Numbered from the stretch's first letter, positions 20,574-38,555 are shown. The stretch: 64,000 nucleotides of DNA from an uncultured Elusimicrobia bacterium (GCA_963702895.1 OY969767.1:2496001-2560000); one strand, 5' to 3'. The notes: generated by a model from the letters alone, not told the origin. Numbers and translations: made by a program.

Positions 20574-20768
20574 TGGAGGGAGAGGTCCGCCGCACTCCCG
20601 GCGGATCCGCCGGACGTCTGGCGGAGATTCGTCCGCCACTGAGTCGCTGGCGGACCCGCCTACGTCTTAGTGGCGGGGAACCTTCGGTACGCCCTCCACT
20701 CACCTGGCGGGCGTCCGCCTGTAGTGTGGCGGACGGTTTCCCGCACAATGCTTTTCAAGAGCATCGCC
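20574..20768 (-). pseudogene. tRNA-Ser(UGA) 3' part carrying six inserted hairpins (partner of the 5' half at 38556-38594)
   Basis: Removing the hairpins gives GGCGATGCTCTTGAAAAGCATTGTGCGGGAAACCGTACCGAAGGTTCGAATCCCTCTCCCTCCA; 16 bp shared with 38556-38571. Confidence 0.85.
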
Positions 20769-20789
20769 TCGTGGCGCTTGTGTAGGTCG

Positions 20790-20852
20790 TGAGCGGAGGG
20801 AGAGGGATTCGAACCCCCGGTACAGTTTCCTGTACACCTGTTTTCAAGACAG
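20790..20852 (-). pseudogene. tRNA-Ser(UGA) 3' half, integrase-proximal att junction
   Basis: CTGTCTTGAAAACAGGTGTACAGGAAACTGTACCGGGGGTTCGAATCCCTCTCCCTCCG; 13-bp core shared with 37294-37306. Confidence 0.9.
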
Positions 20853-20957
20853 CTCACCCTCTGTTTCGACGGTTGCTTGATTCAGTTTGATTTATGGAAG
20901 AGAAACGCTGATTGGATTCGTCCCATTTCCATCTCCATTTACAGCCCGATTTACAAC

Positions 20958-22013
20958 TTATGCGATTACGGGTGGCTTTGGCAAGGTCAAAACCCCTTCG
21001 ATGTTGTGAATTTCATCGGTCAGGTCCTTCCTATCCAAGTGCCCGTAATGTTGCTCCGTGACGACCGAAGTGGAATGCCCCAATATCTTTGAAACCTTAT
21101 ATATCGGGGTACCCCCGCTCAGCATCCGTTGCGCGAATGTGTGACGCAGACAATGGAAAGTGAAATCCATCACTTGCGCATCCTTACAACAGTCCTTAAA
21201 CCATTCGCTAACTGTAGTGCAGTGAACGGCATCCAGCAAACGCGTCTCTGGATCTCGGCCAATGGCACGCTGAGACACGACTTCCGCCACTTCTCGCGTG
21301 AGTGGCACATGACGACTGCGCTGAGTCTTCGAATTCGGAACGAAGATGTAGGGCTCCGGGTAAGGGATGAAATCTCTGACCCTTGTCGCCCATATTTCCC
21401 CGATCCGCATTCCGGTATGAATCGCGATGACGTAGTAAGGCCAGAGCCGTGTATGCTTTGCCACGATCGGCGTTAGCCTTTTTTCCTCATCAGGTGATAG
21501 ATACCGGACTCGCGCTTTCGGAACTTTGGCCATCGGGACACCCCAAGCGGGATTGTCTCCGAAATACATCCGGCGTTTCTTGACCCAATTGATAATCGCC
21601 TTTAATCCGGCGTGATACCGGTTCACGCTGTTCAGCGAAATGTGGGGGCTCGAAATGCCGGGGATTGTCTTTTCGACAAACCTACGGAAACCCTCCACAT
21701 CTTTTGGGCCTATGTCTCGTATGCGCCGATTGCCGAAGTAACGCTTTATCCCCTTGATGTATGCCCTATCTCCCTTCCAAGTCCTCTTAAAGGGCCGGGC
21801 GTATTCATCAAAGAACTCGTCACAGGCATCACTCAACTTCAAGTTATCGTTGCCCAATTGGCCTGTCGCCATGCGCTTGAGCATTTCTGACTTCTTGTGT
21901 GTCTCCGCTTTTGCGGCATTACCGCGCGTCTTGTAGCCTTGCTTCCATTTCGTCTGTTTGCCGACTTGGAAGCGGTAACACCATTCTCCGCTTGGCAGTT
22001 GTCTGACCGACAT
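20958..22013 (-). CDS. Tyrosine integrase
   Basis: TGMRIGE, HCLRH, LGH and HY catalytic set; N-terminal arm-binding-like segment. Confidence 0.95.
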   Translation of the reverse strand: MSVRQLPSGEWCYRFQVGKQTKWKQGYKTRGNAAKAETHKKSEMLKRMATGQLGNDNLKLSDACDEFFDEYARPFKRTWKGDRAYIKGIKRYFGNRRIRDIGPKDVEGFRRFVEKTIPGISSPHISLNSVNRYHAGLKAIINWVKKRRMYFGDNPAWGVPMAKVPKARVRYLSPDEEKRLTPIVAKHTRLWPYYVIAIHTGMRIGEIWATRVRDFIPYPEPYIFVPNSKTQRSRHVPLTREVAEVVSQRAIGRDPETRLLDAVHCTTVSEWFKDCCKDAQVMDFTFHCLRHTFAQRMLSGGTPIYKVSKILGHSTSVVTEQHYGHLDRKDLTDEIHNIEGVLTLPKPPVIA

Positions 22014-22051
22014 TTAAGCCTCCTGTCGGCCAAACCTACCGCACGGGTACA

Positions 22052-22261
22052 TTATAGATCCCATTTGAGATTGTGTGGGTTGTTGGCCGCGAGCCATTTC
22101 TCAATATCAATTCGACGAAAAATGACCCTTCTACCGACATGAATGAACGGAATTCGCGCATTACTGGTCATTTTTCGGATCGTTGACTTCTTAATCCGAA
22201 GCAATTCAGCCAACTCCGTAACGTTCAAGAAATCTCGCGGACTCTCAATCGGTGTCGTCAT
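22052..22261 (-). CDS. Excisionase-like HTH protein
   Basis: FLNVTELAELLRIKKSTI...IPFIHVGRRVIFRRIDIEKWL. Confidence 0.88.
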   Translation of the reverse strand: MTTPIESPRDFLNVTELAELLRIKKSTIRKMTSNARIPFIHVGRRVIFRRIDIEKWLAANNPHNLKWDL

Positions 22262-22297
22262 AAGATTATTTTTCAAAAACAAACCCAATCGAAGCCC

Positions 22298-22963
22298 TTA
22301 TTCATCGCTTGGCTCCGAGCCGTGTGTCTCATCCGCAGAATCAGGAGACCGAGCATACTCCGGCCCTTTTCTTCTGGCCTGTAACCGTTCCAGTTCATGG
22401 ATGCACCTGAGGAGCTTCCGTTCGATGCTCGTTTCATACTGGGATAGCAGTTGAAGGCTCTCCTGCACTGTCTGGAATGAAAGACCGGGCACAACATCTG
22501 CTCCCCCAGTCATTCGGCTGAGGCGGTCGATCTGTTTCTGAGCACGCGCCTTTCCCTCTGGGTCAAGAATCTGCTCGAATGGCTCACATAATTTATCCTC
22601 CATGGGGTTCACTATTGCGACATATCGCTTCGCTTTTTCCCGTGCCTCTACCAGCCATTGCGTCAAAAGGCCTCTCATCAAAAGTCCATGTTCCGCATTT
22701 TCTGACCGTCGGAGCCTCCACATCAAACTCGCGACTCTATCAGTCATGAATTGTTCCATGGAACCCTCCGGCTTGTATAAATGATGGACCCCTTCGCTCA
22801 GTTGTTCACATTCTTGGGGATCTTCGTTCGGCAGGACTGCACGTTCCGATGTAAGGCCGTGCTTCAAGGCATTCCTCGCGATAATTGCTTTGCCCGCCAG
22901 ACTTTTTACACCTCCTGCTTTCGCATTGATCCGATTGGCTTGATTTTGCTTTTCAGTGGCCAT
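22298..22963 (-). CDS. Hypothetical mobile-element protein
   Basis: MATEKQNQANRINA...ARNALKHGL...WRLRR pattern; GGGGG RBS. Confidence 0.7.
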   Translation of the reverse strand: MATEKQNQANRINAKAGGVKSLAGKAIIARNALKHGLTSERAVLPNEDPQECEQLSEGVHHLYKPEGSMEQFMTDRVASLMWRLRRSENAEHGLLMRGLLTQWLVEAREKAKRYVAIVNPMEDKLCEPFEQILDPEGKARAQKQIDRLSRMTGGADVVPGLSFQTVQESLQLLSQYETSIERKLLRCIHELERLQARRKGPEYARSPDSADETHGSEPSDE

Positions 22964-25445
22964 ACTGACCCCCCCTTTGGACTTCAAATAGTGAAGGCTG
23001 TGAACTTGGTGAACCATTTTCGACGTGCTCAGGATTAGGGATGTCCGTTTCTCGGGGTCCATTAAGTACAACATCGGGCTGGCCGAGGTTCACAGGGTTC
23101 ACAGGTTCACTGAGTGAAATGAGTTTCCACTGCTTTGCCCGTTGCTTTGATCCGGCCAGTAGCACACGGAATTCATCGAATTGCCGGTCACGGAGTTTCA
23201 TGAGTTCTTGACCCATCTTGGTTCGACGGCTTTTCTCCTGACCCAGTCCAAGGTTTATGGGTTCTTCCAACTTCTCGTTCAGATCAAAGAGTTCCGCCAC
23301 CCCTACCTCAGCGTCGCCATGGACTTCCCACCACCTCTGTATAAATCCCCGTAAGATGTTGCCTTCCTCATCAGATGCGCCGTAGAAGTCGTTGAGATTG
23401 CCAAGGAATCCGGGCACACCGGCAACCGATAGGACTCCACCCATGGTCTTTGACCAAGATTCGAACATTCCCAGACTTACACCCTTGAAAGGAGGCCTTC
23501 CTTGAGCGATCCACCCCTGAATGATGGTCAGAGCGGCCCAGATAATCTGCGGACGCTTTTCTCTTGCCCAGCACATAAGGTCTGGATGTCGAAATCTGTC
23601 GCGCAACCATGGGCGGTCAGCTTTGGCATCCATTCTTATTCTGATCGAGCGGCGGGACATTTCGTTGGATAAAGCTGGATTATTTCCATTGGCAACCCAA
23701 GCGCATCTCACTGGCAAGGAGATGACTTTTGAGAACCCTAGAATCCGATCCTCCCAACAAGGCGAAGTGATGGCTGACGCGAGTGCGGACGAGTCCAGCC
23801 GTCTTCTGATGTTGTCGATGAGCAGGATGTCGGGTCTTTCCATGAGTTTTGACGTGAGTCTTTTTCGCCATTCGTCAGAATCCCTCCCCTCACTCATAGT
23901 CGATACGGGCCGACCCAGAGAAGCAAACGCCACAGCGTTGATCAGAAGCGTTTTCCCAGTTCCGGGCGATGGGGCTTCTACGAGGTGAAGCGGTGTCGCT
24001 CCATTAATCAGATCCCTCGCAAATGGAAGCAACAAAAGCGCAAACGCATGGGCACGCTCCGCCTCTCCTGTAAACGGGAACTCCCCGATCAGTTCATCTA
24101 GGATCAGGCCGCGAGCTCCTTGCAGTTCGTCATGGCTCGGTACTGCGGCGACCTCAGGAATCTCTCTGGGATCAGAATGAAAAAGGTATGTCTGGCTTGC
24201 TGGGTGGTAGCCAGATGATGTTTGCAATAGCCCTTCCGGAGAAAATACCGGAGCTTCCACGATGCGGGTCAATATTGGCAGGGGTAATTCGGGAGATGCC
24301 AGCATGTCTTTGACAACATGCATCGGAGGTAGCACGGGATAGACTTCTCCTTGGTAAACGCGATACCAATCCGCAGAGCGAGCCAAAACATGCCGCATCT
24401 TGTCCTGAACCAATTCCCTCAAACGCGGGTATCCCTTATCGTCTTTTTCGATTCGAACCGGCAGACCTCCTGAGCGGAACAGTGTGGGGGGCCGATTGAA
24501 TTGCTCAACCGCTTCCCATGCCAAAGGCGTAATTCTCTTGAGTTCAAAGTCTCCTGCATCGATGTGCGGAAGTGAATCAGCGCTCTTGCCGATCTCATGA
24601 GAGACTATAGGCAACATTAAGGCCTCTGCTGAATCTCGCGCCGCAGAAAAGCGGCTTGAGAACTCATTGGGATATTTAAGATGCAGGTCGCTGAGGTCCT
24701 TGGCATCACTCAGCTTGATTAGTTTGAGGATTCCATGCCATTCAAGGTTCTGCACACGGGAGGAAATCCCATCGGCAAATACCTCGCCGCCTCTATCGGG
24801 CTCTTGGATCACACAGAGTTCCTCGAACGCCCGGATATGTTCAGCGTTAAGCTTTTTGGCCATATCGGCACCCGGAAGTCCCAGCACGGGCAATTGATGA
24901 AACCAACCCGTTAAGACATCGGTCTCGCCTTCTACGAGCACCAGATACTTCTCAGATGCAAATTCTTGCAACCTCCACAGCCCGTATGGAACCGATGACC
25001 CTGACCCACTCGACCACCTACTCCCTTCCTTGGCAACTAAGGAAGTCCGAATCCTCTGGCGGGAGGCTTTACTGCCGTCCATCAATCGATAGGTTATTCT
25101 TGCGCCCTTGAATGGAATATCCTCCACGCCGTGTTGTCTAAGAAACTGCGAAGGCAGGTGCTTGTGCTGGGCAATCGCCTCTACAGTTACCAGCACCCGG
25201 TGCTTCGGTTCTGTGGTAGGGACTTGGGCAAAGAGCGTTTCTAACGGAAGTCTTAACGCTTTGCGAATGTTCTCAAAGGGGCACCCCGCAAAGCATTTGA
25301 AAAGGATTTTCCCATCGTTCCCAATCCCGACTGATAGGCTCTGTTGTCGGTCCTCGTGCGACGGACAAAGTGCAGTCCACTGGGATTCTCCGTTCTTTTT
25401 GACACCTTTGAGGCGAGACAACACAAGTTCGACACTCATTGCCAT
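22953..25445 (-). CDS. Primase-helicase-like replication protein (Zn finger, TOPRIM, P-loop ATPase)
   Basis: CPSHED...CFAGC; LVEGETD, EPD; SPGTGKT, LLIDN. Confidence 0.85.
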   Translation of the reverse strand: MAMSVELVLSRLKGVKKNGESQWTALCPSHEDRQQSLSVGIGNDGKILFKCFAGCPFENIRKALRLPLETLFAQVPTTEPKHRVLVTVEAIAQHKHLPSQFLRQHGVEDIPFKGARITYRLMDGSKASRQRIRTSLVAKEGSRWSSGSGSSVPYGLWRLQEFASEKYLVLVEGETDVLTGWFHQLPVLGLPGADMAKKLNAEHIRAFEELCVIQEPDRGGEVFADGISSRVQNLEWHGILKLIKLSDAKDLSDLHLKYPNEFSSRFSAARDSAEALMLPIVSHEIGKSADSLPHIDAGDFELKRITPLAWEAVEQFNRPPTLFRSGGLPVRIEKDDKGYPRLRELVQDKMRHVLARSADWYRVYQGEVYPVLPPMHVVKDMLASPELPLPILTRIVEAPVFSPEGLLQTSSGYHPASQTYLFHSDPREIPEVAAVPSHDELQGARGLILDELIGEFPFTGEAERAHAFALLLLPFARDLINGATPLHLVEAPSPGTGKTLLINAVAFASLGRPVSTMSEGRDSDEWRKRLTSKLMERPDILLIDNIRRRLDSSALASAITSPCWEDRILGFSKVISLPVRCAWVANGNNPALSNEMSRRSIRIRMDAKADRPWLRDRFRHPDLMCWAREKRPQIIWAALTIIQGWIAQGRPPFKGVSLGMFESWSKTMGGVLSVAGVPGFLGNLNDFYGASDEEGNILRGFIQRWWEVHGDAEVGVAELFDLNEKLEEPINLGLGQEKSRRTKMGQELMKLRDRQFDEFRVLLAGSKQRAKQWKLISLSEPVNPVNLGQPDVVLNGPRETDIPNPEHVENGSPSSQPSLFEVQRGGQYGH

Positions 25446-25466
25446 ACCTCTTGAAGGTAATGTCGA

Positions 25467-25733
25467 TTATTTCGATGCCAAGGGGCTATTTCCATATCCA
25501 TCGCTCCTATGAATGAGATCTTTGATTCGTCTTTGTGAGTCAGAGAAATCGCGAATGTTGCCCACAAGGTCGCCGCGCAGGAAGGCCTCAATCAGACTTG
25601 CGGCTTGGTCAGATGACTTAAATTGGAAATGACATACGCCGCGATCCCGCAGAACGGTAATCAGCGGAATGCGAAACGCGAGAAGAAGCGCGGCTTCGTT
25701 AAAATCTTTCGTGGAGAAGGGTTGCATGTTCAT
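25467..25733 (-). CDS. Small hypothetical protein (DUF5659-like)
   Basis: 'TKDFNEAALL' pattern; directly upstream of the primase. Confidence 0.55.
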   Translation of the reverse strand: MNMQPFSTKDFNEAALLLAFRIPLITVLRDRGVCHFQFKSSDQAASLIEAFLRGDLVGNIRDFSDSQRRIKDLIHRSDGYGNSPLASK

Positions 25734-25823
25734 TCCATGTGATGCTTTGCATGGAATTATTATGCGGAATGCAAATTACCCGAAAGGGCGTATACGCCCT
25801 TTATGCGATGGAAATTAGGTAAT

Positions 25824-26324
25824 TTATTTCTGGGATAGGATCTTGCGAATAGTGTTTCCGCTAAGGCAAGGGAATGACTCACCACTCTCGGCTGAAAGAT
25901 TCAGATTATGATCTTCGAGTCGATCCGTCAGGATGCGAGCGGCTTCACGTCTTGTTATTTTCGAGTTGTGTGTTTTCATCTCATCGAATTGGTTCCAGAG
26001 CCATTGATGTAGTGCTTTGGATCTTTGTCTTCTGCGAGGCTTCTGAGTTGCAGATCTGTATTTGGATTTGACTTGTCCGTGCACCTTCCTTAGCTGTCGA
26101 GTCGTTCTATCAAGCTTGCTATAGGGGAAGAACCGCTCCCCTTGTTTCTCCTTCGCTTCATAGGATCTCCACACCGATGCGACGTGCTTTTGCACTTCAC
26201 GCAAACTCCAAATCAAAGGAATCTTTAGAACAATTCGTTTCTGCTTCCCGGATGCTTCCTCATGTACAGAGAATGAAGTTGGGGGAAGTGGTCGATACGA
26301 TTCCTTTGATTTATCCATTTCCAT
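25824..26324 (-). CDS. Hypothetical basic protein
   Basis: ORF on the island strand; C-terminal helix 'SGNTIRKIL'; start uncertain. Confidence 0.45.
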   Translation of the reverse strand: MEMDKSKESYRPLPPTSFSVHEEASGKQKRIVLKIPLIWSLREVQKHVASVWRSYEAKEKQGERFFPYSKLDRTTRQLRKVHGQVKSKYRSATQKPRRRQRSKALHQWLWNQFDEMKTHNSKITRREAARILTDRLEDHNLNLSAESGESFPCLSGNTIRKILSQK

Positions 26325-26355
26325 GTCAATACTTGCTAGACGAGCTAAGCCGGTG

Positions 26356-29166
26356 TCACTCCTCCTCAAATTCGGCGATATTGAATCGCAAGGTGTTGGC
26401 ATTTTCCTGAACGATTCGGCGGGTGGAGTCCGAGACTCCGCCGGGTGACTCGGCCTCGATCTCCATCGTAATCTTGACCTTGGTTCCGTACTGGCTGGTG
26501 AAATGCTGAACGACCTCATCAGCGATCCGAGCGGCCTCGATCCCCATCTTGACCGGATCGAGGGGCACGGAACCGTGGAACCGCTTCATTGGCTTGGATT
26601 GAGGAGCTGATGTGCCCGGCAATCCCCCGGCGATTGGAGTCTTTCCACTTGGTGTGACCTCTGGTGTGGAAGGGGCTGTACCGTCCTTGACCATCCCGGC
26701 CTGCCGAGCGAGGGCTTCTCTCTCAATCTGGGCTTTGGCGGCGACCGGGTTGATGAGAATGCTGACCTCATCCTTGTAAACCGTGCCCTGTTTTCCGAAC
26801 AGGAGTCCCAAGTACCGTCCATCCTCTTTCCCGGTTGCGAAGGCGAAAAAGTCCTGACTGCCTATCCCGGCAGAAATCGTTTCAAAGAGCACATGGGTAT
26901 CCACAAGGCGAGGTAAGTATGGATAACAGCAAACCGCTTTCCACACTTCCTTGACGGTAACCTCCGGGCGGTCATCCTTCCAGAACCACTCCCGGAGCAT
27001 ATCGCGCAGATGAATTGGTGACCACCGGGGATAGATGAACTCATTTTCGACGCAGAGCTTCTCTATCGCTTCCATCGGATTGGACCCGGCGGATTGAAGG
27101 CTCTTTTCCCCCCAGAACACATCCTTGGCTCCACCCTTCGAATTGGCTTCCTGCGCCGGAACCAGAACCCATCTGTACACTTCCTTCACGGCGGCGCTGA
27201 CCCTGCCGTCAGCCTCATCCCGGTTGTCCTTCGATTCCTTGATCTGGTGCTGATCCAGATTCAGAAGCGCCGTGTCATTGACGATGCTGTCCCACGCCAT
27301 AAACCTTTTGACCTGATCCCAAAGGTGGGTGCTCGCATCCTCGTCCGCCGCCAAAAAGACGAGCCTGTTCTGGTTCTGGCGTGGCTGTTGACCTCTCTGC
27401 GTGTTGATCGTGGAAGCGGCATCCACGGCCCTCGATTTCGGAGTCTTGCCACGGTGCGGCGCGGCTGGCGACAAAACGACAAGCCGTACGGATTCGTCGT
27501 CCGGGATGTCCTCATGTCCCGTGAAAACATGGACTCCCGAAAAGGGACCGCCCCGGACAAGATTCCGCACACGATTCTGTATCTCCGGGATCAGATGCTC
27601 GTCCCGTTGGAACCGGGACAGCCTGTCCTCCATCTCACGCCTCAAATTCGGACGAGTGTCGTACCAATACCTGTCGTTCCCGGTGTAGAGATGATGAAGC
27701 TGGTCCTCCAAATGCTTCAAGGCATCGTCATATCGTCCGATCTGTTGTCCGGGCTGGGCACATCCCAGCCGCACGCGCTGGGCATTCACGCCCCGCACTC
27801 TCTGGGCCGCGACCGACGGAGCGCTTCCCAAGAAGATCGTCCGGGCGACGCGCCGCGCCGCCTGCACGCTCCCTCCAAGGGGGTTTTTCTTGTCCATTTC
27901 GGTGGGTACAGCTTCATCGCCATCAATATCGTTCTCAATGACTGCGTCCCAACCCTGTGGGAGATACCGATTCAGTTCATTGTCCACCTGCGGATCATAA
28001 AGCGGAAACGAGCCGGGCATAACGAGCAGGTCTGTGTTCCCATCAGCCCAAAGCCGATGAATGACCATCGCCATGAGCCGGAGTACGCCTCGCGTGCGCT
28101 GAAAGTGTTCAAGGCTGGCCCAATCCTTGTATAAGCGCTCAAAGACTTCCGGGTGGATCGGGTAGGAATCCGTCAGTTGGGTCAGGTAGGCGGCTTCAAC
28201 GGTTTCAGATGGAAATTGCCCCTTGTTCTCGACGTATAGATCAGCAAAAGCGCGGGAGACGGCATCCCTCGTCTTTGTGTCTTTGATCTTTCCAAAAAGC
28301 CGTCGCCGGACGATCTCAAACCCTTCATGCGTTGCCACGGGCTTCCAAATGGCTTCCTTGCGGCCAAAAATCTTCTGGATTTGCGCGAGCGCGACCTTCC
28401 CTCTCTCGCCACCGACTTCCATATCCGATTCTGGTAGCGATGCCAAGAGCACCATGTTGGTCTGCTCCGCCGACTCCGTCAAAGCCTGAAAAAATGACAG
28501 GTTCGAGTCAAAAGTCCCGCCAGAATACTGTTTGCCATCCTCAAACTGGCGGAGGTATGCCACGGTTTCGTCAATGAGAACGACGCATGGAGAGTATTTC
28601 GTGAACAGCTCGACCAATACTTTCTTGCCCGGCGATGTCCCGTCACGGTCAGATGCTTCGACCAACTTGTAACCCTGATCGCCACCCAGTTGCCATCCCA
28701 GCTCCCCCCAAAGTGTTTTAACTTCAACGCCATCGCGCTTTCTTGTGTGAGACGGACTGAGAGCGTTTCCGTCAATGATGGCAACCCGCGCACGGGGAGA
28801 TTCTTTTATGCCAGCTTGGTCCAAAATCTTTGGGATTCCGGCCAGCTCCTTGGCCGGGCGTTTGGATGTCACCAAGTGATAGACAGCGAGCATGGCGTGA
28901 GTTTTTCCGCCGCCGAACGCGGTTTGGAGCCGGATCACCGGATCACCACCCTTGCCTGCCAGCCTGCGTAGAACGCTATCGAGAAGCAGGTGCATTCCCT
29001 CGGTAATGAACGTCCGATCAAAAAAGGTTGCTGGGTCTTGGTATTCCGGGGAGGCTTTTCCTTCGGCGACCTTACTGAGGTCTGCGGCGAACTCAGACTC
29101 CTGAAAAGTCCCTTCAAGCACATCGCTGTTAGGTGGTATCACGTCTCGCCACGGTTTAAGGCTCAT
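26356..29166 (-). CDS. DUF499 AAA+ ATPase
   Basis: [32 protein letters not shown] and [12 protein letters not shown]. Confidence 0.92.
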
Positions 29167-29182
29167 AAGTTTGCTCCCGCTC

Positions 29183-32026
29183 TTAGATGTTTAATTCCGT
29201 CTGCTCGTTGACGTGCCCAACCTTGTGGCTGGTTTCGCTCACGCCGTGCCAGCTCACAATCAGCTCGTTGTAAATCCGAGCTTCCTCGGCCCAACCTTTT
29301 TTTTCGCAAAGGGTATAGAGTCGGTATGCCAACTGCCGTATGCGTTCCGTTTTTTCTGGCATCTTGGCAAGAAGCGCTCCGGCTTCGGATTCACTTACAC
29401 GCAATGCTCGGCTCAACTGATGGCACGCCTCCCAGATAGGAACCCTTGCGTCTTTCTCTGGATTCCATTCGGCAGAATACTCAGAGACTTTGAGGAGCCG
29501 TACTTTACCAGCGCCAGCTTCCACCACACCCGCGTCTGATAGTCCACCCACGCTTGTTCCTTTGGCTCTGGCAAGTACATCAGCCTCCCCATAAGCTCCT
29601 GCCTTAAAACCATATTGCTGAAACCAATCAATACAGAATCGGGTGTCCGAATCCATATCGCTCTCAGCGTGAGTGAAATACTCCTCGATGGCTTTGTTGA
29701 TGAGTTTGAGAACGGTATGGACTGACATTGACTTTCCATCAGCTTCCAAAACGGCGGGATATTGAGAGAACACAGCCATGCCCGGACCGATAGCCGCTTG
29801 TGCGAGGTCAACAGGTGCAATGGGACTCGCCCCCTCTGTGCCGCCGATCATTGCCTCAAGCGCTTCCGGGAGTGATTCATCGAGTTCACGAAGGAATTGT
29901 TTTCTCGGAACGGTGGGAGTATCGGCAGGGCGTTTTCGACAGACAAGAACAATGGATGATGCCAATGCGTTTGTGTCCGCACCCACCATTCTGTTGCTAA
30001 GTTCCGTACGCATGGGCCATGTTCCTGTGATCGCAAAGCCTGATCGGATCACCGCCTCAAGAAATGTTTCCCAGCCAGTAGATGTTGTCCCTTCGCTGTC
30101 TGTCTCTGCCTGCTTGAAGGCATAGTAAATCGTCACTGGAATAGCCGGGTGACTTACCGTCTCTATGTTGTGAACAGCTTGAGACATTCCATTAATAAAA
30201 AAGGTTTCCGCGTTATCTTTCCCGCCATGCCTGAAAGGACTCGCAATAAGTTCCTGAGCCTTCGGAACTAATAATGTCGAAAATAGCTCAGGGAATATTG
30301 AGCGCAATGAGCGACGCAACCAAACATAGAAGAAGTCAGAAAGATCAGCGTAACCAATATTGTCGTAATAGGGTGGATCGGTTGAAATTATTGCTCGATT
30401 CACATAGTTTTCAAATGGAGCCATCGCATCGCGCTGAGTGACCGAGGCCGAACGATAGACGGGCAGATTAAGGATAGCTTCACTTATTGATGATAACGAC
30501 ACCACAAAATCGCCTGCCGCTCCTGCGAAGGGATTTACATCAGGAAAATCCCATGTCATCGGGATTGCTTGCCTCGCAAAAGCGGTCACAGTTTGTTCTC
30601 TGCTTGATGTCCACCTTGCTATCGTGCATAGTGTATTTGCCATTCGACTGACACCCATCGACAAATAGATGGCAATCGCCTCGGCATAGGCTTTAGCACC
30701 GACCCCATTTTCCATGAGTCCTTTACTACCATCAGATGGATTTAAGGTCTTAGCATCTGACATTATCTTCTGTCGCACCTCTGACACCAAATCTGAGAAA
30801 GTGGACATAGCAACTAATTGGCGGGACGTAAACAGATGCCGATGTTTCGTCATGCCATATTCCTGTATACGGAAGCCCAGTGCTTTCTTGGGGAGATCGG
30901 TGTCTGGGATGTCCCGTGGATCGGCAGACTTAGCAATGCGTTCCATATCGTCGCTTGCTGGCAGATAAATACGGCCTGATTTGCATTCGACAACAACAGC
31001 CATCAACCGTTGGCTCATACGGCCAGCCTTTGCTTCTGAGCGGATGTAATTAAACGGGACAGGAGTCTGAGACAGGAGACATATAGCTCCATTTCGATTG
31101 ACAGTGCCTTCAATCGTCGGTTTTCCCTTGCCAGCTCGGATTACAAATGAGTAACTCATCTTGTCCTTAGCAATTTGAGGTTCAATCCATACTTTCTTGT
31201 CATCCTTCGTCGATAGCCAGAATGAACGCACCAAAGGAATGTGTACGCCTTTGCAGGCAGGGTTCGGACTTGCAACAGTCCGTGCCCAAAGCCACGCAAT
31301 TACGTTCGCTTTTCCTGCACCATACTCTTTGGGTAGATCGACCTGTGGGTAAAGGTAACCAATCCGTTTGAAAGCTTCGTCACGCATCCATCTACCATAG
31401 CGACGCACATCTTCGGCCAATCCTTTTGCCCCGGACCAATCCTCCATTGCGTCGATCTGTTCCTTTTCATTCAGAGGAATTGGGCCGATTGGTTTGCGTC
31501 CAGCGAATTTTGGTGGAATTTCTAAGAGTGCTTTGCTGATCATTACGGCCACAGGGTTCAAATCGGAAGCATGAGCTTCAAGACCTAGTCGCTGGGCCTC
31601 AAGCGGTATAGAACCACCTCCTGCAAAAGGATCGAGGAAGGGTGGCAATTTGTCTGGGTTCTCGCCTGTAAGCTTGCAGGTTTCTACCCACGATTTACGA
31701 ATCTCAGTGCGTGCTTGTTCCAACACTTTCTCGTTAGTCGTGCTCTCCCATTTCACCAGCTCCCTGACAATAGCGAACAGCCGCTCTCTCTCTTTGAGCG
31801 CATCTGCTTTGGTTTGGCCGGGATAAGCGCCATAACCCCTCTCGCCGCCGGGATCGTTCACCATTTGGGCAAATAGAACGGCTCTCGCCGCCGCTAAAGG
31901 CCGTCTTGCCCACCAGAGATGGAGGGTTGAGGGGTGTCCATGTCGGATGGACTTCTCCCGGACACAAGCCTCGTTAATGTCGTCAAGGGGCAAGGCCACT
32001 TCGATCAGCTTCTTGGGGTATTTCAT
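29183..32026 (-). CDS. DUF1156 amino-DNA methyltransferase
   Basis: [20 protein letters not shown] and TDPPYYDN. Confidence 0.92.
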
Positions 32027-35000
32027 TCGCGTGTCGCCATCTTCAATAGTGCCTTGATCTCGTAATTCATGCTTTCTACTCCGAAAGGGGCTTCATCCTT
32101 GAACGCGCCGCGAACGTAGAATGGGCCTTCCGTTCGTTCTCCGTCCACCAGAACGATGGCGAGCGCAAATCGGTCCGGCTGGTTGAACCCGGTCAGAATC
32201 TCGTTCTTCGTGACCGTTACGGTTTGCGCGTCCTTGGCGCGGCCTTTAACCTCAACAAACTTCAAGTCACCGCTTTTCAATTTGGAAGTGATGTCCCAGC
32301 CGCATTTCTGTTTGGAAACGTCTTGAGGAGTGTTGTTCAGCGATAGTTCATGGCGCATGACCGCTTCCATCGCCATCCGTTCGATCTTCTCGCGGACGGC
32401 AGGGTCCTGCGTCATCAGATCACCAGACCCCATTTTCTGGCGCAAGAGGCCCGCCGGAATGACCAGAGCGCCGCCCACCACACGCGGAGTGGCAGATATG
32501 ACGTGGCGACGGGCTTCCAAGTCGGTTTGCCGTTCTTTGAGCCTCTGGTCCAGCTCCTCAGCCCGTTTGCGGGCATTGTCTGGTTGAAGGCGGGGTTGCT
32601 TGCCCAAAGAAACCTGTTCCTGCAACTGGGCGGCACGCTTCTGCCAGTATGTGATTTCCTTGACCAAGCGCTCCTGAACGGCCTGCAAGGTCGCATCAAT
32701 TAGCCGCTCTTGCCTCGATTGGACCTCACGGAGGTGCTCTGGCACTATGGTTTGCGCGGCATGGGCAATAATCAATGGCTCAAGGTCTTTGTGTAGCCAT
32801 TGCTCTTGCAAAATGTCCTTGATGTGCTCACGTTCCTCATCCTTGAGCGGTCGATAATCCAGATAGGGGGCATAGCCACCTTGCGCCACTTGCCCCTTCC
32901 GATCCACCTGCACAAACTGCAATCGCTCAGAAATCGGTCTTTGCTTCCCGTGTCGGTCCACCGCCCCATCACGAATCTGGTGTTCAAGGATAAACATGAC
33001 TCTCGGCTCCACTCCATCGTCGGCGCTGTCCACCAGAACGGTTCCGCGTTTAAGCAGGTCGCGGTACTTCTCGACAACGAGATCGAGTACTGAATCCATT
33101 AAGGGATGACCGGGGCATATTAAAACGGCTGGGGGCTTGCCGTTTTGTCGTATCTTGCTTTTCTCAAAACAGATACGTTCGTACTTTGGCGTAACCGGAT
33201 GCCCGCGTCCGATGACTTTGTCTCTATTGCGGATTACTGATGGGACGTGGGTGATCTCATAGCGACCTGATTCGCGTTGATGGATCTGCCCACCAAAGCA
33301 GGAAAATCCTTCGAGGAAGAATGCGCGGATAAAGTGTGGTTGGAGTTTCCGGGCTTCGGCCTTTTCCATATCGTCTTTGAGTGCGAAGACTTTGCTCGAA
33401 TCCATGTGCTCGGTTGCCAATGCGACGCGATCCATAATATCGCGCAACCGTTCCCGGTCAAGTGCCCCTTCGACCTTCTGATGCAGTCTGGCCTTGGCTT
33501 CCGGTGTTTCTCCTTCCCGGATGGCCTCGATAAGCAACTCGCGTAATGCAACTCCGCTAAAGACTTCACCCAGAATGTCGAATACACGGCCACCAAGCGC
33601 CTGCCGCTCGATATCGAGCTTCTGCAATAGCCTCTCGAACACATCGCCTTCGCGTGTTTCCTTCGCCACCATGTTCCAGCAATGACAGATTTCTTCCTGC
33701 CCGATGCGATGGATGCGGCCAAAACGCTGTTCGAGACGGTTGGCGTTCCACGGAAGGTCATAATTTATCAGCAGGTTGGCCCGTTGAAGATTGATACCTT
33801 CACCTGCCGCATCGGTGGCGACAAGGATCAAAACGTCTTTCTGGTTTGTGAACATCTCTTGGGTTTTGCGCCTCTCATCCCGATTCATGCCGCCATGAAT
33901 CGTCACAACCGCATCGTCGTTACCCATCAAGCCTTTGATCTTGTCCACCAGATAGCGCAGAGTATCTCGATGCTCGGTAAAAACGATCAGCTTGCGGCGG
34001 TTGCCGAACGAATCCTTCATCTCCGGGGTGTCTTGGAGCAGGCGGGAGAGTTCTTCCCATTTTTTATCCTCTCCCGATACTCGGACTTGATGTGCCTGCT
34101 TTTCCAGCCTCTTTAGGCTCTCGATCTCTCCTCCCAGCTCCGTGATGGTCTGAGCCGCTGTCGCCTGATCGACGACCTTTTCTTCGAGCGCCTCGACCTC
34201 AGAGTCCGGCGCGTCATCCAGAAAGTCGGCTATATCTTCTTCGGAGAAAGCCGGAAGATCAGGCTTTGCTACTGGGACGGTCTGCCCGCGTTTGCTGGAT
34301 AGCTCCTCTAACCGACCCTCCAAATTCTTGCGACGACGTTCGAGAGAGCGGAAGATCGCCTCCGGGGAAGATGCCAGTCGCCGTTGAAGCGTAGTCAATG
34401 CAAACCCGACCGTACCTCGACGATTGGTATCGAGTTTGTCGGCGCGGTCCATTTCGCCACGGACGTAGCTGGTCACCGCCTCATAAAGAGCCGATTCCTG
34501 TGCTGAGAGCTTGTAATTGGCCGTGTAGGCTTTGCGTTCCGGGAAAAGGGGTGTTCCTTCGAATGTGAGTAGCTCCTCCTTAATCATGCGACGCATCAGG
34601 TTAGTCACATCAGGTTGAACGTCTTTCTCTCTCGGTTTCCCGTAGAAACGATCTGGGTCCAAGAGAGCCATGAACAGATGGAAGTCCTCCGGCTTGCCGT
34701 TGTGCGGTGTGGCTGTCATCAGCAAGAGATGGCGTGTGATCCGGTCAAGCAATTTGCCGAGGTTGTACCGCTTCGTCGCCTTGATCTCGTTGCCGTAATA
34801 GGTCGCGGACATCTTGTGTGCTTCATCAACCACGATCAGGTCCCAGTCACTGTGGCTGAGACGAGCTTCTAATTCTTCGTCGCGGCTTAGTTGATCCAGA
34901 CGGCAGATTAGAAGGCTGTAACGCGGATCAGCGAAGATTTCTCCGGCGTGGCTGGAATTGTCCAGTTCCCGGCCAAAGATGTCGAAGACAAGGCCGAACT

Positions 35001-35517
35001 TCTCCTCAAGCTCATCCTGCCATTGTTCGACAAGCATCCCCGGCGCGATGATGAGACATCGCTTCACGTCTCCCCGGAGCATCAATTCCCGGATGAACAG
35101 CCCAGCCATGATGGTTTTGCCCGCGCCGGGGTCATCGGCTAAAAGGAATCGCAGGGGTTGTTTGGGAAGCATGGCATCATAGACAGCGGTAATCTGATGC
35201 GGCAAAGCCCGTACGTTGCTGGTATGAATCGCCATCAGTGGGTCAAACAGGTGGGCAAGCTGAATCCGTTGGGCTTCGGCGACAAGCCGGAAAGTCTGAC
35301 CATCCCCGTCAAAGGTCCACGGTCGACCTCCCATGGCGACAGAAAGCTTGTCCTCGTCCTGTCGGAACAGCATCCTCTCGCCCGTTCCACCAGCATCGTC
35401 ACGGTAGAACACACTGACCGCGTCGGTCCCGACCGGATTGACAGCAACGACCTTAGCCGCTTGATGCGGCAGAATCCCCCAGACAAGGGTTTCAGGTTTC
35501 AGTTCTTCGAGTTTCAT
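32023..35517 (-). CDS. SNF2-family helicase with C-terminal DUF3883 nuclease-like domain
   Basis: [32 protein letters not shown]-terminal GWDI...VEVKG. Confidence 0.93.
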
Positions 35518-35519
35518 TC

Positions 35520-35612
35520 AAAAAAAGACGAGGTCCCGGAAACCATTGGGTGGCAAAACCGGGACCTCAAAAACATAGAAATGGCGTTATCCTGCCAGCG
35601 TCCCAATGGTTT
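35520..35612 (-). promoter_or_regulatory. Structured leader (terminator/antiterminator-like) of the helicase operon
   Basis: 10-bp stem gaggtcccgg/ccgggacctc with a T-run just before the ATG; its loop is complementary to 35593-35612. Confidence 0.5.
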
Positions 35613-35661
35613 TTTCATTCACGCTCCCGCTCAGTTCAGCATGTGTAGAGCACACCTGTTT

Positions 35662-36270
35662 TCACAATTGAGTTTCTTTTCTAGCTGAATGTAACAATCC
35701 CAGATGACTCAAGGCTGTTTCAACTGCTTCCGTGGCTTCTGATGCAGAGCAACAGAAGACTTCTCCAAATGGAGCTTGCTTATCGTGACGCTCCGCTAAG
35801 ATTTTATGCGTTAGGTATTCAACCTTCTCGACACCTTCCGTATAAAAAGCGGCCATAAATTGCCACTCTCCCACTGGTCGAGGGTAGTGACGATACCTTT
35901 CTATTCGCTTTTCAAGAGTATTCACTATCCGAACGGCTGAATTTCTTTCACTACCGGAAAGTTGGCCGAGACGACTAATAATATTCTCTCGATAGGACTC
36001 AGCAAGCGCCACATCTTTTTCAAGGGGTAACGCGTTGCCCCCCGAACAACCTCTGCCACTTTTAACATGTTGAGGAACAAGCCCCATGATGTTAAGTAAA
36101 CGACCGCCACAAACCTGACAAGTGACCTTTCGCTCTAGCCACATATCATTGAAAGTTCGAAGCCGATCCGCTACATCATTAACTCCAATAGCAGTCATTC
36201 CGATTTTCACGCGCTGAACTGCGGAGTTTTCAAAAATATATACAGCACCGTGGTAGAGAAAATCGCGCAT
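35662..36270 (-). CDS. GIY-YIG/T5orf172-like nuclease with a Cys/His insert
   Basis: GAVYIF...VKIGMT...RL; CQVC...H...C; E..H..L, GEVF. Confidence 0.7.
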   Translation of the reverse strand: MRDFLYHGAVYIFENSAVQRVKIGMTAIGVNDVADRLRTFNDMWLERKVTCQVCGGRLLNIMGLVPQHVKSGRGCSGGNALPLEKDVALAESYRENIISRLGQLSGSERNSAVRIVNTLEKRIERYRHYPRPVGEWQFMAAFYTEGVEKVEYLTHKILAERHDKQAPFGEVFCCSASEATEAVETALSHLGLLHSARKETQL

Positions 36271-36322
36271 TTAACGTTAAGCTATCCCGAGTGACAACAT
36301 AGCGATTCCGCCAACAAAAGAA

Positions 36323-36412
36323 TGGCGGAGGGTGAGGGATTCGAACCCCCGATAAGCTTTCGCCTATAACGCTTTTCAAGAGCGTCGCCTTCAACCGCTC
36401 GGCCAACCCTCC
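36323..36412 (-). tRNA. tRNA-Ser(UGA), intact, 90 nt with encoded CCA
   Basis: GGAGGGTTGGCCGAGCGGTTGAAGGCGACGCTCTTGAAAAGCGTTATAGGCGAAAGCTTATCGGGGGTTCGAATCCCTCACCCTCCGCCA folds as a full class II cloverleaf. Confidence 0.96.
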
Positions 36413-36425
36413 AAATCTATTCGAC

Positions 36426-37178
36426 TCAGGTCGCATGGGCGACATTTCGCCATGCCCCATCTTTCAACTGCACATAATGCATAACGATCTGTTCAGTTGC
36501 GTTTTGAATGTCTATGGTCAGATCAAAAATATCCTTCCATAAATCATCAATTTTCATTTCGGTTAAATCTCCGAGGACCTGCTGTGCCGCGCCATCCGCA
36601 AAATGGTATCTGGTCGAACCAGCCGTGGCTCCCCTTGATATATAGGGCGTTCTCTTCTCCTCTGGTTCAACTAAATCAAAACGATTCCTAAAGCCTCTCA
36701 ATAACTCGGCGGGGTCGTAATGGAAAGTGACTTTATTTCGAATTCGTAACAGGACCTTATATGTCCTGCTGTTGGCCTTCCCACCAACAGCGAACGCGAC
36801 AAATTCTTTCCACTTGGCTCGCGCTCGCTTATTCATTTTGTCTACTATCTTTTTCATGAGCGGATGTTTCAGCGCATTTTCGTTGTCGACAATGTAGTCA
36901 ACGACGCTAAAGATCAGGCTAATATATTGACGCTGTAGGTGATAAATCAGGCCCCCATATTCACCCCATTCGGGAGTCGCCGCCCACTCGCCCTTAGGTG
37001 TCTGCTTTTTCAAAGTCTCCCATGCCGCCGCAACATCAGCTAAGTCATTATGGGCCAGAGCAAAACTAAGCACCAAACCAGCGACCCCGCTCTCATCTGG
37101 ATCAATCTTCGTAAAGACCTGAGCACTAAAACTCTCCAAGTCGGCCAGCTTGAATTCTCTGATTTCACCGATGCTCAC
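36426..37178 (-). CDS. Hypothetical protein, possible HEPN-like RNase
   Basis: Helical protein with RNKVTFH (RN-x4-H). Confidence 0.55.
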   Translation of the reverse strand: MSIGEIREFKLADLESFSAQVFTKIDPDESGVAGLVLSFALAHNDLADVAAAWETLKKQTPKGEWAATPEWGEYGGLIYHLQRQYISLIFSVVDYIVDNENALKHPLMKKIVDKMNKRARAKWKEFVAFAVGGKANSRTYKVLLRIRNKVTFHYDPAELLRGFRNRFDLVEPEEKRTPYISRGATAGSTRYHFADGAAQQVLGDLTEMKIDDLWKDIFDLTIDIQNATEQIVMHYVQLKDGAWRNVAHAT

Positions 37179-37293
37179 ATTTACAACTCCCTACGGCCTC
37201 ATTTACAACCTGCCCATAAAAACAGGGCTATCTCTGTCATCCATCGTATCACTCGCTCCGTCGAACAGGTGCGGTAGGTTGGCCGGTTTATTG

Positions 37294-37334
37294 GTTTTCA
37301 AGACAGGCTCCTTAAGCCGCTCGGACATCCCTCC
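37294..37334 (-). pseudogene. tRNA-Ser(UGA) 5' half, distal att junction
   Basis: GGAGGGATGTCCGAGCGGCTTAAGGAGCCTGTCTTGAAAAC, then non-tRNA sequence; acceptor and anticodon stems pair with 20790-20852. Confidence 0.9.
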
Positions 37335-37360: not shown

Positions 37361-37378
37361 CCACTCTCCCAACCCTCC
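37361..37378 (-). pseudogene. Short tRNA-Ser 5' relic
   Basis: GGAGGGTTGGGAGAGTGG. Confidence 0.55.
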
Positions 37379-37471
37379 GCTGATCGCTTTCCTCATTTTG
37401 TCACTACGTCCAACCTTCCTTGACTCTAACAGGTTGGGACAATCCTCCCGCTCTATCATGGCGGGAGGACG

Positions 37472-38394: not shown

Positions 38395-38555
38395 AGCTTC
38401 TAGATTATATGTCCTGTACCCACAGCTTTCCACAAAAGGTTTAGACCTTCATACGCCCGACTTTACAACAACAGGACACAAAAGTGTAAAACTCGGTACA
38501 ACTCCGTACAAGTCCTTTGAATGAAAAACTGCGCGACGTTTGGCCGTAGGGTAAC

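What the first reader, a model, noticed from the sequence alone, without database searches (positions are those of the whole stretch)
20790..37334. Integrative element that destroys its target tRNA and carries a complete replacement
Seen: joining 37334-37294 to 20852-20794 across the 13-bp core rebuilds a cloverleaf (GGAGGGA/TCCCTCC acceptor, CCTGT/ACAGG anticodon stem). No 3' tRNA sequence follows the 5' half, so the target is not restored. About 0.9 kb inside lies a divergent, intact tRNA with the same anticodon. Established: tRNA-targeting tyrosine integrases normally carry the 3' fragment in attP and regenerate the gene. Inference: the short att core could widen host range, and the replacement tRNA could make partial deletion of the element costly.
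Basis: partly seen in the sequence, partly recalled or inferred. Interest (0 to 1): 0.88.

Follow-up and report, generated by a model that had tools for sequence, protein, structure and literature searches.

The report
Island splits tRNA, carries replacement copy
A 16.5-kb mobile defence island has cut this bacterium's only serine tRNA(UGA) gene in two without repairing it and supplies its own complete copy, a trick published in 2024 for phages but seen here in a non-phage island, with older layers of the same event stacked around it.

Summary
A tRNA-Ser(UGA) gene on the minus strand is split into a 5' half (37334-37294) and a 3' half (20852-20794). They share a 13-bp core that occurs only twice in the 2.72-Mb genome. 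Rejoined, they fold as a valid tRNA. Neither junction holds a tRNA.

The 16.5 kb between them is one element: tyrosine integrase, primase-like protein, a complete HmaABC defence system and an intact tRNA-Ser(UGA) at 36323-36412. That tRNA is the only one with this anticodon in the genome.

The design recurs. In related Elusimicrobiota the same element arm abuts orphan tRNA-Ser 5' halves at 15 loci. An intact co-oriented tRNA-Ser(UGA) lies 0.7-2.6 kb inside in 9 of the 10 loci that can be assessed. One relative (G008) has a second full element.

The window also holds an outer, older pair of halves bounded by a unique 16-bp repeat, so the split gene was itself an earlier replacement.

The principle is already published as "tRNA-dependent lysogeny" of actinobacteriophages (PMC10865867). 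New here are the non-phage defence island, the phylum, and the nested stacks, which imply rapid horizontal turnover of an essential tRNA. This scan has already noted similar islands on other genomes (8 earlier notes).

The parts
37294..37334 (-). Orphan 5' half of the split tRNA-Ser(UGA) 'A' (attL). The 13-bp core is 37294-37306.
   Evidence: Sequence. 90% identical to the 5' half of the same-genus G001 tRNA. Rejoined with the 3' half it is a valid tRNA.
37180..37293 (-). Element arm next to attL (P' arm). It begins CCAATAAACCGGCC and carries the CTACCGCAC box 17 nt after the loop, then three GTAAA-type repeats.
   Evidence: Conserved in G002, G008, G010, L082 and L083 (alignment). Junction pattern search.
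36426..37178 (-). 250-aa ORF between the arm and the cargo tRNA. Function unknown; weak lead to a HEPN AbiU2-like protein.
   Evidence: No Pfam, PHROG or PADLOC hit. Atlas feature score 0.92 to an AbiU2-like cluster, a lead only.
36323..36412 (-). Intact cargo tRNA-Ser(UGA) 'B' with encoded CCA. The only tRNA-Ser(UGA) in the genome.
   Evidence: ARAGORN. Rfam tRNA 58.1 bits. CCA comparison.
35662..36270 (-). T5orf172/MUG113 (GIY-YIG-like) domain protein, 202 aa.
   Evidence: Pfam PF10544 8e-07.
32023..35517 (-). HmaA, SNF2/DEAD helicase of the Hma defence system.
   Evidence: PADLOC HmaA, E=0, 1792 bits, full length. Pfam helicase domains.
29183..32026 (-). HmaB, DUF1156 DNA adenine methylase.
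   Evidence: PADLOC HmaB, E=0, 1458 bits. PF06634.
26356..29166 (-). HmaC, DUF499 AAA+ ATPase.
   Evidence: PADLOC HmaC, E=0, 1312 bits. PF04465.
22953..25445 (-). 830-aa primase/helicase-like replication protein with an N-terminal CHC2 zinc finger.
   Evidence: PHROG primase and polymerase/primase families, best 1.9e-84. PF01807 weak.
20958..22013 (-). Tyrosine integrase, 351 aa, catalytic residues present.
   Evidence: PF00589 2.5e-21. phrog_1 6.5e-60. R203, H287, R290, H313 and Y323 are invariant in the alignment with the 56-57% identical G008 integrase.
20853..20957 (-). Element arm next to attR (P arm), with two GTAAA-type repeats and GAGGGT upstream of the core.
   Evidence: Alignment with the G008 attR region.
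20794..20852 (-). Displaced 3' half of tRNA-Ser(UGA) 'A' (attR). The core is 20840-20852. No encoded CCA.
   Evidence: Sequence. 95% identical to the G009 tRNA at positions 45-88. Core identity.
38556..38594 (-). Older orphan 5' half 'C', joined at its anticodon loop to a degenerate arm of the same kind. The outer 16-bp repeat copy is 38556-38571.
20733..20768 (-). Remnant of tRNA 'C' (anticodon stem-loop plus variable arm, truncated), 24 nt downstream of A's 3' end. The outer 16-bp repeat copy is 20753-20768.
   Evidence: The 16-mer occurs only at these two places in the genome.
37740..38433 (-). MNT (38077-38433) and HepT (37740-38093) toxin-antitoxin pair inside the older outer layer.
   Evidence: PF01909 3.9e-14. 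PF01934 8.4e-25.
39541..39564 (-). Third, oldest arm copy (AAAACCAATAAACCAGCCAAC), preceded by a decayed G003-type 5' portion.
   Evidence: Blast hit, 24 nt at 95.8%. Sequence.
37361..37503 (-). Debris of a tRNA-Ser(UGA) of the type that is intact at the syntenic site in same-genus G003. Positions 36-67 lie at 37503-37472 and positions 1-18 at 37378-37361.
   Evidence: Blast, 97% over 32 nt and 100% over 18 nt. Synteny.

Best explanation
Window 20853-37293 is one integrative, non-phage defence island. Its tyrosine integrase recombines an attP with only a short core against the anticodon loop of the resident tRNA-Ser(UGA) gene.

attP carries no tRNA 3' half, so integration leaves two dead halves. 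The cell then lives on the complete tRNA-Ser(UGA) that the island carries about 0.9 kb inside its attL end, in the same orientation as the split gene.

The UGA anticodon is the only reader of UCA codons in this tRNA set. The island's tRNA is therefore essential while the island is in place. Precise excision would rebuild the old gene. Any other loss of the island must keep the tRNA.

The island's own tRNA still has an unprotected CTTGAAA loop, so it is the target for the next arrival. This gives nested layers and stacks of orphan 5' halves.

Shown: the anatomy, the uniqueness of the tRNA, recurrence in relatives, and the nested repeats. Inferred: the exchange point inside the loop, present-day mobility, expression of the cargo tRNA, and the selective consequences.
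For: The split and the core:
- The two halves share a 13-bp core that is unique to these two places in the genome.
- The rejoined gene is a valid tRNA-Ser(tga).
- The 3' half pairs with the upstream orphan 5' half, not with the intact tRNA. Acceptor: GGAGGGA/TCCCTCC. Anticodon stem: CCTGT/ACAGG. The intact tRNA has GGAGGGT and ACGCT.

The tRNA is needed:
- It is the only tRNA-Ser(UGA) of 48 tRNAs.
- There are 2801 UCA codons in 854 long ORFs.

The element:
- The integrase is intact.
- All ten main ORFs lie on one strand.
- No phage structural family was hit among the ORFs scanned: ten against Pfam, seven against PHROGs.
- HmaABC is complete.

A second full element in G008:C7:
- Its integrase is 56-57% identical.
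- Its cargo is a type I R-M system, a reverse transcriptase and AbiE.
- It has an internal intact tRNA-Ser(UGA).
- Its attR 3' half (stem TCGTT) matches the decayed upstream 5' half (AACGA), not the cargo tRNA (CTCGA).

Recurrence of the junction:
- The junction CTTGRAAA-N17-CTAYCGCAC occurs at 10 places in 9 of 393 class genomes, against 0 for the reversed control.
- All 10 are preceded by a tRNA-Ser 5' half; one of them is decayed.
- With the hits there are 15 junction loci.
- In 9 of the 10 with enough contig, an intact co-oriented tRNA-Ser(UGA) lies 0.7-2.6 kb downstream.
- In 8 of these 9 the orphan half and the intact gene differ in the anticodon stem.

Nesting:
- A unique 16-bp repeat pair (38571-38556 and 20768-20753) encloses the 13-bp pair.
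- Contig L082 has four junctions in a row before one intact tRNA.

Turnover:
- tRNA-Ser(UGA) genes are 71-85% identical within the genus. The neighbouring tRNA-Ser(GCT) is 94-96% identical across genera.
Against: - No conspecific genome with an empty site, and no excised circle, could be found. The one sequencing run offered held only about 5% of the sampled words and gave no joints.
- One junction locus (G013:C51) has no tRNA within 17 kb.
- In G032 the orphan 5' half is 42/42 identical to the intact tRNA downstream. That fits an element carrying only a 5' half and regenerating the gene better than it fits a full replacement.
- In five relatives no integrase follows the tRNA. These could be integrase-less cassettes rather than decayed islands.
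- G004 and G010 show the junction but no integrase at E<=1e-20 with this query. Their contigs break at or near the junction.
- No sigma-70-like promoter was found upstream of the cargo tRNA, and no expression data exist.
- The relatives are metagenome-assembled genomes.
Confidence: 0.85

Rival explanations
1. Canonical integration. The intact tRNA at 36323-36412 is the regenerated target (host 5' half plus a 3' half supplied by the island), and the two 'A' halves are unrelated debris.
For: The intact tRNA lies upstream of the cargo and the integrase lies at the far end next to a tRNA 3' fragment, as at ordinary tRNA islands. The locus is full of other tRNA debris.
Against: The 3' fragment at attR is complementary to the orphan 5' half in both acceptor and anticodon stems, and not to the intact tRNA. 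The 13-bp repeat joins exactly these two halves and is unique in the genome. The element arm abuts the orphan 5' half, and does so in 15 loci. The same mismatch logic holds in G008.
Confidence: 0.03
2. Two units, not one. A small integrase-less cassette (arm, small gene, complete tRNA) is the real tRNA replacer and is moved in trans. The integrase and defence segment is a separate passenger, or the cassette's helper fused to it.
For: Small modules of just this make-up, without an integrase, occur in G032, G023, G007, G279 and G273. The window's own outer layer is about 1.3 kb: arm, MNT/HepT, tRNA 'A' and 24 nt, between 16-bp repeats, with no integrase. Earlier scan notes describe integrase-less cassettes of this kind in other phyla (unchecked notes).
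Against: In the window and in G008 there is no att-like site between the tRNA and the cargo; the gaps are 52 nt and 9 nt. The only repeats flank the whole 16.5-kb or roughly 16-kb unit. The small modules can equally be what selection leaves when an island decays but its tRNA must stay.
Confidence: 0.1
3. Assembly or binning artefact: the split arises from a chimeric join of two populations.
For: Relatives are fragmented metagenome bins, and several contigs break at this very junction.
Against: The window lies in a single 2.72-Mb contig. Both junctions and the 16.5-kb interior are contiguous. The same architecture is found in independent assemblies from other genera.
Confidence: 0.02

Closest known systems
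tRNA-dependent lysogeny of actinobacteriophages (Fionnbharth/K4, Cluster L, Cain/K6, Gaia, Gordonia CQ2/DL; Guerrero-Bustamante and Hatfull, mBio 2024, PMC10865867; abstract and sections 10 and 11 read)
   Same: A tyrosine integrase, an attB inside an essential single-copy tRNA gene, and a common core too short to rebuild the tRNA (8-17 bp there, 13 bp here). The element carries a tRNA of the same anticodon. Putative arm-type repeats flank the core. A 5'-CTT at the left of the core is the best conserved part there, and the loop here begins CTT.
   Different: The element here is not a phage. It has an integrase, a primase-like protein and an Hma defence system, with no structural or lysis genes. 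The host phylum is Elusimicrobiota and the target is tRNA-Ser(UGA). The window and its relatives show nested layers and stacks of orphan 5' halves and integrase-less remnants; I did not find these in the parts of the paper I read. No experiment was done here.
Lj965 prophage of Lactobacillus johnsonii, and tRNA substitution by phage-related sequences in Sinorhizobium meliloti (named in PMC10865867 section 11; PMC11476347 discussion passage; PMC12429752 passages)
   Same: Integration fails to rebuild the tRNA, and a cognate tRNA on the element could complement it. The S. meliloti authors note that a host tRNA gene is replaced by a foreign one, which diversifies tRNA genes.
   Different: These are prophages or phage-related sequences in other phyla. 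I saw only passages, not their data.
Canonical tRNA/tmRNA genomic islands (Islander; PMC4383910, abstract seen in the listing)
   Same: A tyrosine integrase, a tRNA gene as target, a displaced tRNA fragment marking one end, and defence cargo.
   Different: Canonical islands restore the gene with a fragment in attP. This one does not, and carries a whole gene instead.
Elements that reverse the usual orientation and supply the tRNA 5' part (Zhao and Williams 2002; recalled from memory, not retrieved)
   Same: An orphan 5' fragment is left upstream of an intact tRNA. The G032 locus, with 42/42 identity between orphan and intact 5' parts, looks like this.
   Different: In the window and in G008 the attR side has no 5' half, and the intact tRNA differs from the orphan in both halves.

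Membership tests
tRNA-dependent lysogeny (as defined in PMC10865867) | Element-encoded tyrosine integrase | tested here: met
   PF00589 2.5e-21 and phrog_1 6.5e-60. R203, H287, R290, H313 and Y323 are present.
tRNA-dependent lysogeny (as defined in PMC10865867) | attB overlaps a host tRNA gene, and the short common core means no functional tRNA at attL or attR | tested here: met
   13-bp core. ARAGORN and Infernal find no tRNA at either junction. The rejoined halves give a valid tRNA.
tRNA-dependent lysogeny (as defined in PMC10865867) | [quoted passage not shown] | tested here: met
   tRNA-Ser(tga) at 36323-36412 inside the element.
tRNA-dependent lysogeny (as defined in PMC10865867) | The disrupted tRNA is otherwise unique, and hence essential, in the host | tested here: met
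   One tRNA-Ser(tga) among 48 tRNAs in the single-contig genome. UCA codons are in use. Essentiality itself is inferred from wobble rules.
tRNA-dependent lysogeny (as defined in PMC10865867) | The element is a temperate phage | tested here: not met
   No capsid, tail, terminase or lysis family was hit among the ORFs scanned (ten against Pfam, seven against PHROGs). The content is integrase, primase-like protein, HmaABC and T5orf172. It works like the family but is not a lysogen.
tRNA-dependent lysogeny (as defined in PMC10865867) | The element's tRNA is required for stable integration | not testable with these tools
   Needs genetics. Indirect support only: the tRNA is retained in 9 of 10 assessable junction loci.
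Canonical tRNA-restoring genomic island | attP carries the tRNA 3' part, so an intact hybrid gene forms at attL | tested here: not met
   The sequence after the core at attL is the conserved non-tRNA arm.
Hma defence system (PADLOC) | Adjacent HmaA helicase, HmaB methylase and HmaC ATPase | tested here: met
   All three match full-length PADLOC models at E=0 and lie in a row on one strand.

The most novel reading that the evidence does not exclude
In this Elusimicrobiota lineage the sole tRNA-Ser(UGA) gene has become a relay baton passed between mobile elements. Each arriving island or integrase-less mini-cassette (arm plus a small toxin-antitoxin or Abi-like gene plus tRNA) kills the current copy, installs its own, and thereby creates the only landing site for the next. 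An essential translation gene is thus inherited horizontally and turns over faster than its neighbours. The stacks of orphan 5' halves are a readable record of successive invasions. The mini-cassettes are moved in trans by the integrases of the large islands.
Probability: 0.35. Interest if true: 0.7.

Novelty: new variant of a known kind. Interest (0 to 1): 0.5.

Why it matters
It shows that the "destroy the tRNA and bring your own" strategy is not confined to temperate phages of Actinobacteria. A non-phage defence island in a barely studied phylum uses it too.

Tools that map genomic islands by looking for a regenerated tRNA plus a displaced 3' fragment will miss or mis-bound such elements.

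An essential tRNA gene can be replaced horizontally again and again. Here the copies are 71-85% identical within one genus. This bears on using tRNA genes as stable markers and on how mobile elements make themselves hard to lose.

The short-core integrases, which need little more than the anticodon loop, could also be of interest as integration tools.

Tried and rejected
- **Public reads for an empty site or excised circle.** One run was offered, holding about 0.05 of the sampled words. Laying it on 19500-38500 at 80% likeness gave only short pieces from other organisms over the tRNA parts, and no joints. No conclusion drawn.
- **19-mer arm pattern in genome contigs.** 16 stretches were returned. 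Only the 4 Elusimicrobiota contigs, with 5 sites, have a tRNA half or the rest of the arm. The other 11 are chance matches.
- **22-mer with up to 3 mismatches in 393 genomes.** Apart from the exact hits (G000, G004, G010) and the hairpin-interrupted hits (G002, and G008 twice), the remaining 16 rows look like chance. The reversed control pattern also hit about 20 genomes.
- **Model in which the element brings only a 5' half that fuses with the host 3' half.** Rejected for 8 of 9 loci because the orphan and intact anticodon stems differ. Kept open for G032.
- **Promoter and terminator scan of 36250-37750.** Nothing found. Uninformative for this phylum.
- **tblastn of the 250-aa ORF and other island proteins against relatives' loci.** Only the integrase (G008) and a Fic protein have homologues.
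- **First guess that the organism was Dehalococcoidia.** Wrong: the record titles say Elusimicrobiota.


Full report
**The observation**

ARAGORN finds one tRNA in the 64-kb window, tRNA-Ser(tga) at 36323-36412 on the minus strand.

Read on the minus strand, 37334->37294 is a clean class-II tRNA 5' half: acceptor strand GGAGGGA, a 3-bp D stem, and anticodon stem CCTGT with loop CTTGAAA. 20852->20794 is the matching 3' half: ACAGG, a long variable arm, the T arm, TCCCTCC and a discriminator G, with no encoded CCA.

Both junctions carry the 13-mer CTGTCTTGAAAAC. It occurs only at these two places in the 2,724,539-base single-contig genome.

A join of the halves at the core, made inside a script, is called by ARAGORN as an 88-nt tRNA-Ser(tga) with a full cloverleaf.

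After the core at the 5' half comes non-tRNA sequence. Neither ARAGORN nor Infernal at a permissive threshold finds a tRNA at either junction. The only Infernal signal there is a 30-bit tRNA-Sec-like hit on the 3' half, below its gathering score.

**What lies between the halves**

All the main ORFs are on the minus strand. In tRNA direction, from the 5'-half junction, the order is:
- a conserved arm;
- a 250-aa ORF with no family match;
- the intact tRNA-Ser(UGA), 882 nt from the junction;
- a T5orf172-domain protein;
- HmaA, HmaB and HmaC, each matching its PADLOC model full-length at E=0;
- a 231-aa ORF;
- a DUF5659 protein;
- an 830-aa primase/helicase-like protein (PHROG primase families, best 1.9e-84);
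- a 258-aa ORF;
- a 351-aa tyrosine integrase (PF00589 2.5e-21; R203, H287, R290, H313 and Y323 present);
- about 105 nt of arm, and then the core.

No phage structural or lysis family was hit among the ORFs scanned. This is an integrative defence island with a replication module, not a prophage.

**Is the internal tRNA needed?**

ARAGORN on the whole genome gives 48 tRNAs and one tmRNA. The serine tRNAs have anticodons cga, gga, gct and a single tga, which is the island's. By the wobble rules (established knowledge) only UGA reads UCA, and 854 long ORFs hold 2801 UCA codons.

The island's tRNA encodes its CCA end. The split gene and the three other serine tRNAs do not (sequence). The island's tRNA is 79% identical to the rebuilt gene.

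**It is a family trait, not a one-off**

The same arm abuts a tRNA-Ser 5' half directly at the loop (CTTGAAAA followed by CCAATAAACCGGCC...) in:
- G004 and G010, which belong to other genera of the family;
- two metagenome contigs, L082 and L083.

In G002 and G008 the same arm is present, but a palindromic repeat is inserted in the loop of the orphan half.

The 5' halves joined to this arm have different anticodon stems: CCTGT, AACGA and ATGCT. Only the loop is common to them.

Comparing more distant arms showed a constant design: the loop, then 17 nt, then CTAYCGCAC. That pattern hits 10 places in 9 of 393 genomes of the class, and the reversed control hits none. All 10 are preceded by a tRNA-Ser 5' half, one of them decayed.

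Pooling searches gives 15 junction loci.
- Five cannot be assessed, because the contig ends at most about 1.6 kb after the junction: G004, G010, L083, G044 and G273:C128.
- Of the other 10, nine have an intact tRNA-Ser(UGA) in the same orientation 0.7-2.6 kb downstream: G000, G002, G008, L082, G032, G007, G023, G279 and G273:C47.
- One (G013:C51) has none within 17 kb.

**A second complete element**

G008:C7 holds, in order:
- a decayed 5' half with the arm;
- an intact tRNA-Ser(UGA) 1.65 kb further on;
- type I restriction-modification genes;
- a Fic protein;
- a reverse transcriptase;
- AbiEi/AbiEii;
- an integrase 56-57% identical to the window's;
- a tRNA 3' half.

That 3' half (stem TCGTT, acceptor TCCCTCC) pairs with the orphan 5' half (AACGA). 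It does not pair with the intact cargo tRNA (CTCGA, GGAGGGT). The same logic in the window rules out the canonical reading, in which the intact tRNA would be the regenerated target.

**Older layers in the window**

Upstream of the orphan 5' half lie three further items.
- A second orphan 5' half at 38594-38556. It is joined at its loop to a degenerate arm and is followed by an MNT/HepT toxin-antitoxin pair.
- A third arm copy at 39564-39541.
- Pieces of a tRNA-Ser(UGA) of the kind found intact in same-genus G003: 100% over 18 nt and 97% over 32 nt.

Twenty-four nt downstream of the displaced 3' half sits a truncated anticodon-stem-loop-plus-variable-arm fragment. Its stem (AGCAT) pairs with the second orphan's stem (ATGCT). 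The two share the 16-mer GGCGATGCTCTTGAAA, which occurs only at these two places in the genome.

So a unique 16-bp repeat pair encloses the unique 13-bp pair. The gene that the present island split was itself the cargo of an earlier element of about 1.3 kb with no integrase.

Synteny agrees. In G003 an intact tRNA-Ser(UGA) lies in 4.9 kb between homologues of the window genes at 16639-17268 and 57890-59182. These are 40.6 kb apart in the window. G003 shows no orphan 5' half there.

Stacks also occur elsewhere. There are two junctions in G008. Contig L082 has four in 2.5 kb, followed by one intact tRNA.

**Remnants without an integrase**

I scanned ORFs of at least 170 aa downstream of the tRNA in G032, G023, G007, G279, G273:C47 and G013:C51, sending 46 of the 52 listed. 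None has a phage-integrase domain at E<=1e-5, and housekeeping genes follow soon after.

In 8 of the 9 loci with an intact tRNA, the orphan half and the intact gene differ in the anticodon stem. The intact gene is therefore a whole replacement, not a new 5' half fused to the old 3' half.

G032 is the exception. Its orphan is 42/42 identical to the intact gene, with the identity starting exactly at tRNA position 1. This fits an element that carries only a 5' half.

I read the remnants as what is left when an island decays under selection to keep its now essential tRNA. I cannot exclude that they are small cassettes moved in trans.

**Turnover**

tRNA-Ser(UGA) genes of same-genus genomes (the two in G000, plus G001, G002 and G003) are 71-85% identical. 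G002's cargo tRNA is 97% identical to that of G008, which is a different genus. The neighbouring tRNA-Ser(GCT) is 94-96% identical between G000, G003 and G004. This is what repeated horizontal replacement predicts.

**Comparison with what is known**

A full-text search led to Guerrero-Bustamante and Hatfull 2024 (PMC10865867; abstract and sections 10 and 11 read). They define tRNA-dependent lysogeny as follows. A tyrosine integrase acts on an attB in a tRNA gene. The core is 8-17 bp, so no tRNA is rebuilt. A phage tRNA of the same isotype is needed for survival of the lysogen. They also name the Lj965 prophage as an earlier hint.

A passage in PMC11476347 notes substitution of host tRNA genes by phage-related sequences in S. 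meliloti.

The window meets every structural criterion except being a phage.

Of the 23 papers holding the phrase "tRNA-dependent lysogeny" (20 listed), I opened three, and none of those describes non-phage islands or nested stacks. A search for "replacement tRNA" together with "genomic island", "integrase" and "tRNA gene" found nothing. These searches cover open-access text only.

This scan's own earlier notes list eight similar cases on other genomes, including stacked cassettes without an integrase. They are unchecked AI notes and are not counted as evidence.

**Verdict**

The finding is real and correctly read, but the principle is published. It is a new variant: a non-phage defence island in a new phylum, with nested and stacked layers and fast turnover of an essential tRNA.

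Open points are present-day mobility, expression of the cargo tRNA, the route by which the integrase-less remnants arise, and why some stacked 5' halves are identical to each other.

Noticed in passing
window 37504-37549; also G002:C197 (L076), G008:C7 6200-6270 and 7330-7398, L082 1200-1246, L083: A roughly 47-nt palindromic repeat (CCCGCCACT...GGCGGGCCCGCC...AGTGGCGGGG) is inserted exactly between CTT and GAAAA of the anticodon loop of orphaned tRNA-Ser 5' halves in four assemblies, and in the D loop in L083. The same repeat has dozens of copies in the genome, many just downstream of tRNA genes, often flanked by CTT and GAAC. It may be a REP/BoxC-like mobile hairpin with a target preference that the anticodon loop happens to match.
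   Followed up: partly
window 37549-37630 and 39608-39689; G008:C7 24853-24920: An 82-nt direct repeat (95% identical) in the window consists of TTTACC followed by two hairpins. It is homologous to a 66-nt insertion in the D-loop region of an otherwise complete tRNA-Ser(UGA) gene in G008, and the stems differ by compensatory changes. It is either a structured insertion that inactivates redundant tRNA copies or something functional. Unexplained.
   Followed up: partly
L035 16113-16153 and 13841-13927 (G032:C7): The orphan 5' half is identical (42/42) to the first 42 nt of the intact tRNA 2.2 kb downstream, with no identity upstream of position 1 and no integrase nearby. This looks like a 2.2-kb cassette that carries a tRNA 5' half and regenerates the gene, the reverse of the usual orientation.
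   Followed up: partly
L082 39-74 and 1165-1199; 1965-2006 and 3628-3667: Within the stack of four orphan halves, the first two are identical over 35 nt, and the third is 38/39 identical to the final intact tRNA. Simple serial replacement by unrelated cargo tRNAs does not predict this. Gene conversion, or re-invasion by relatives, may be involved.
   Followed up: no
window 19134-20318: A Fic/DOC protein just outside the island's attR side is 44% identical to a Fic protein carried inside the G008 element, between its type I R-M genes. The left flank of the window (17.3-20.7 kb) may therefore be the remains of an older island.
   Followed up: no
L082 4451-5494; L117 2606-3589 (G007:C3): IS200-like Y1 transposase domain proteins (347 and 328 aa) lie within 1-2 kb downstream of the intact tRNA-Ser(UGA) in two relatives. 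They are possibly REP-associated transposases linked to the palindromic repeats.
   Followed up: no
G001:C39 1131-1148; G009:C3 1391-1408; G003:C287 2006-2021: Short (16-18 nt) copies of the tRNA-Ser(UGA) 3' end lie just downstream of the intact gene in three relatives. This is the usual signature of canonical islands that target the 3' end, so the same tRNA is also used by ordinary integrases.
   Followed up: no
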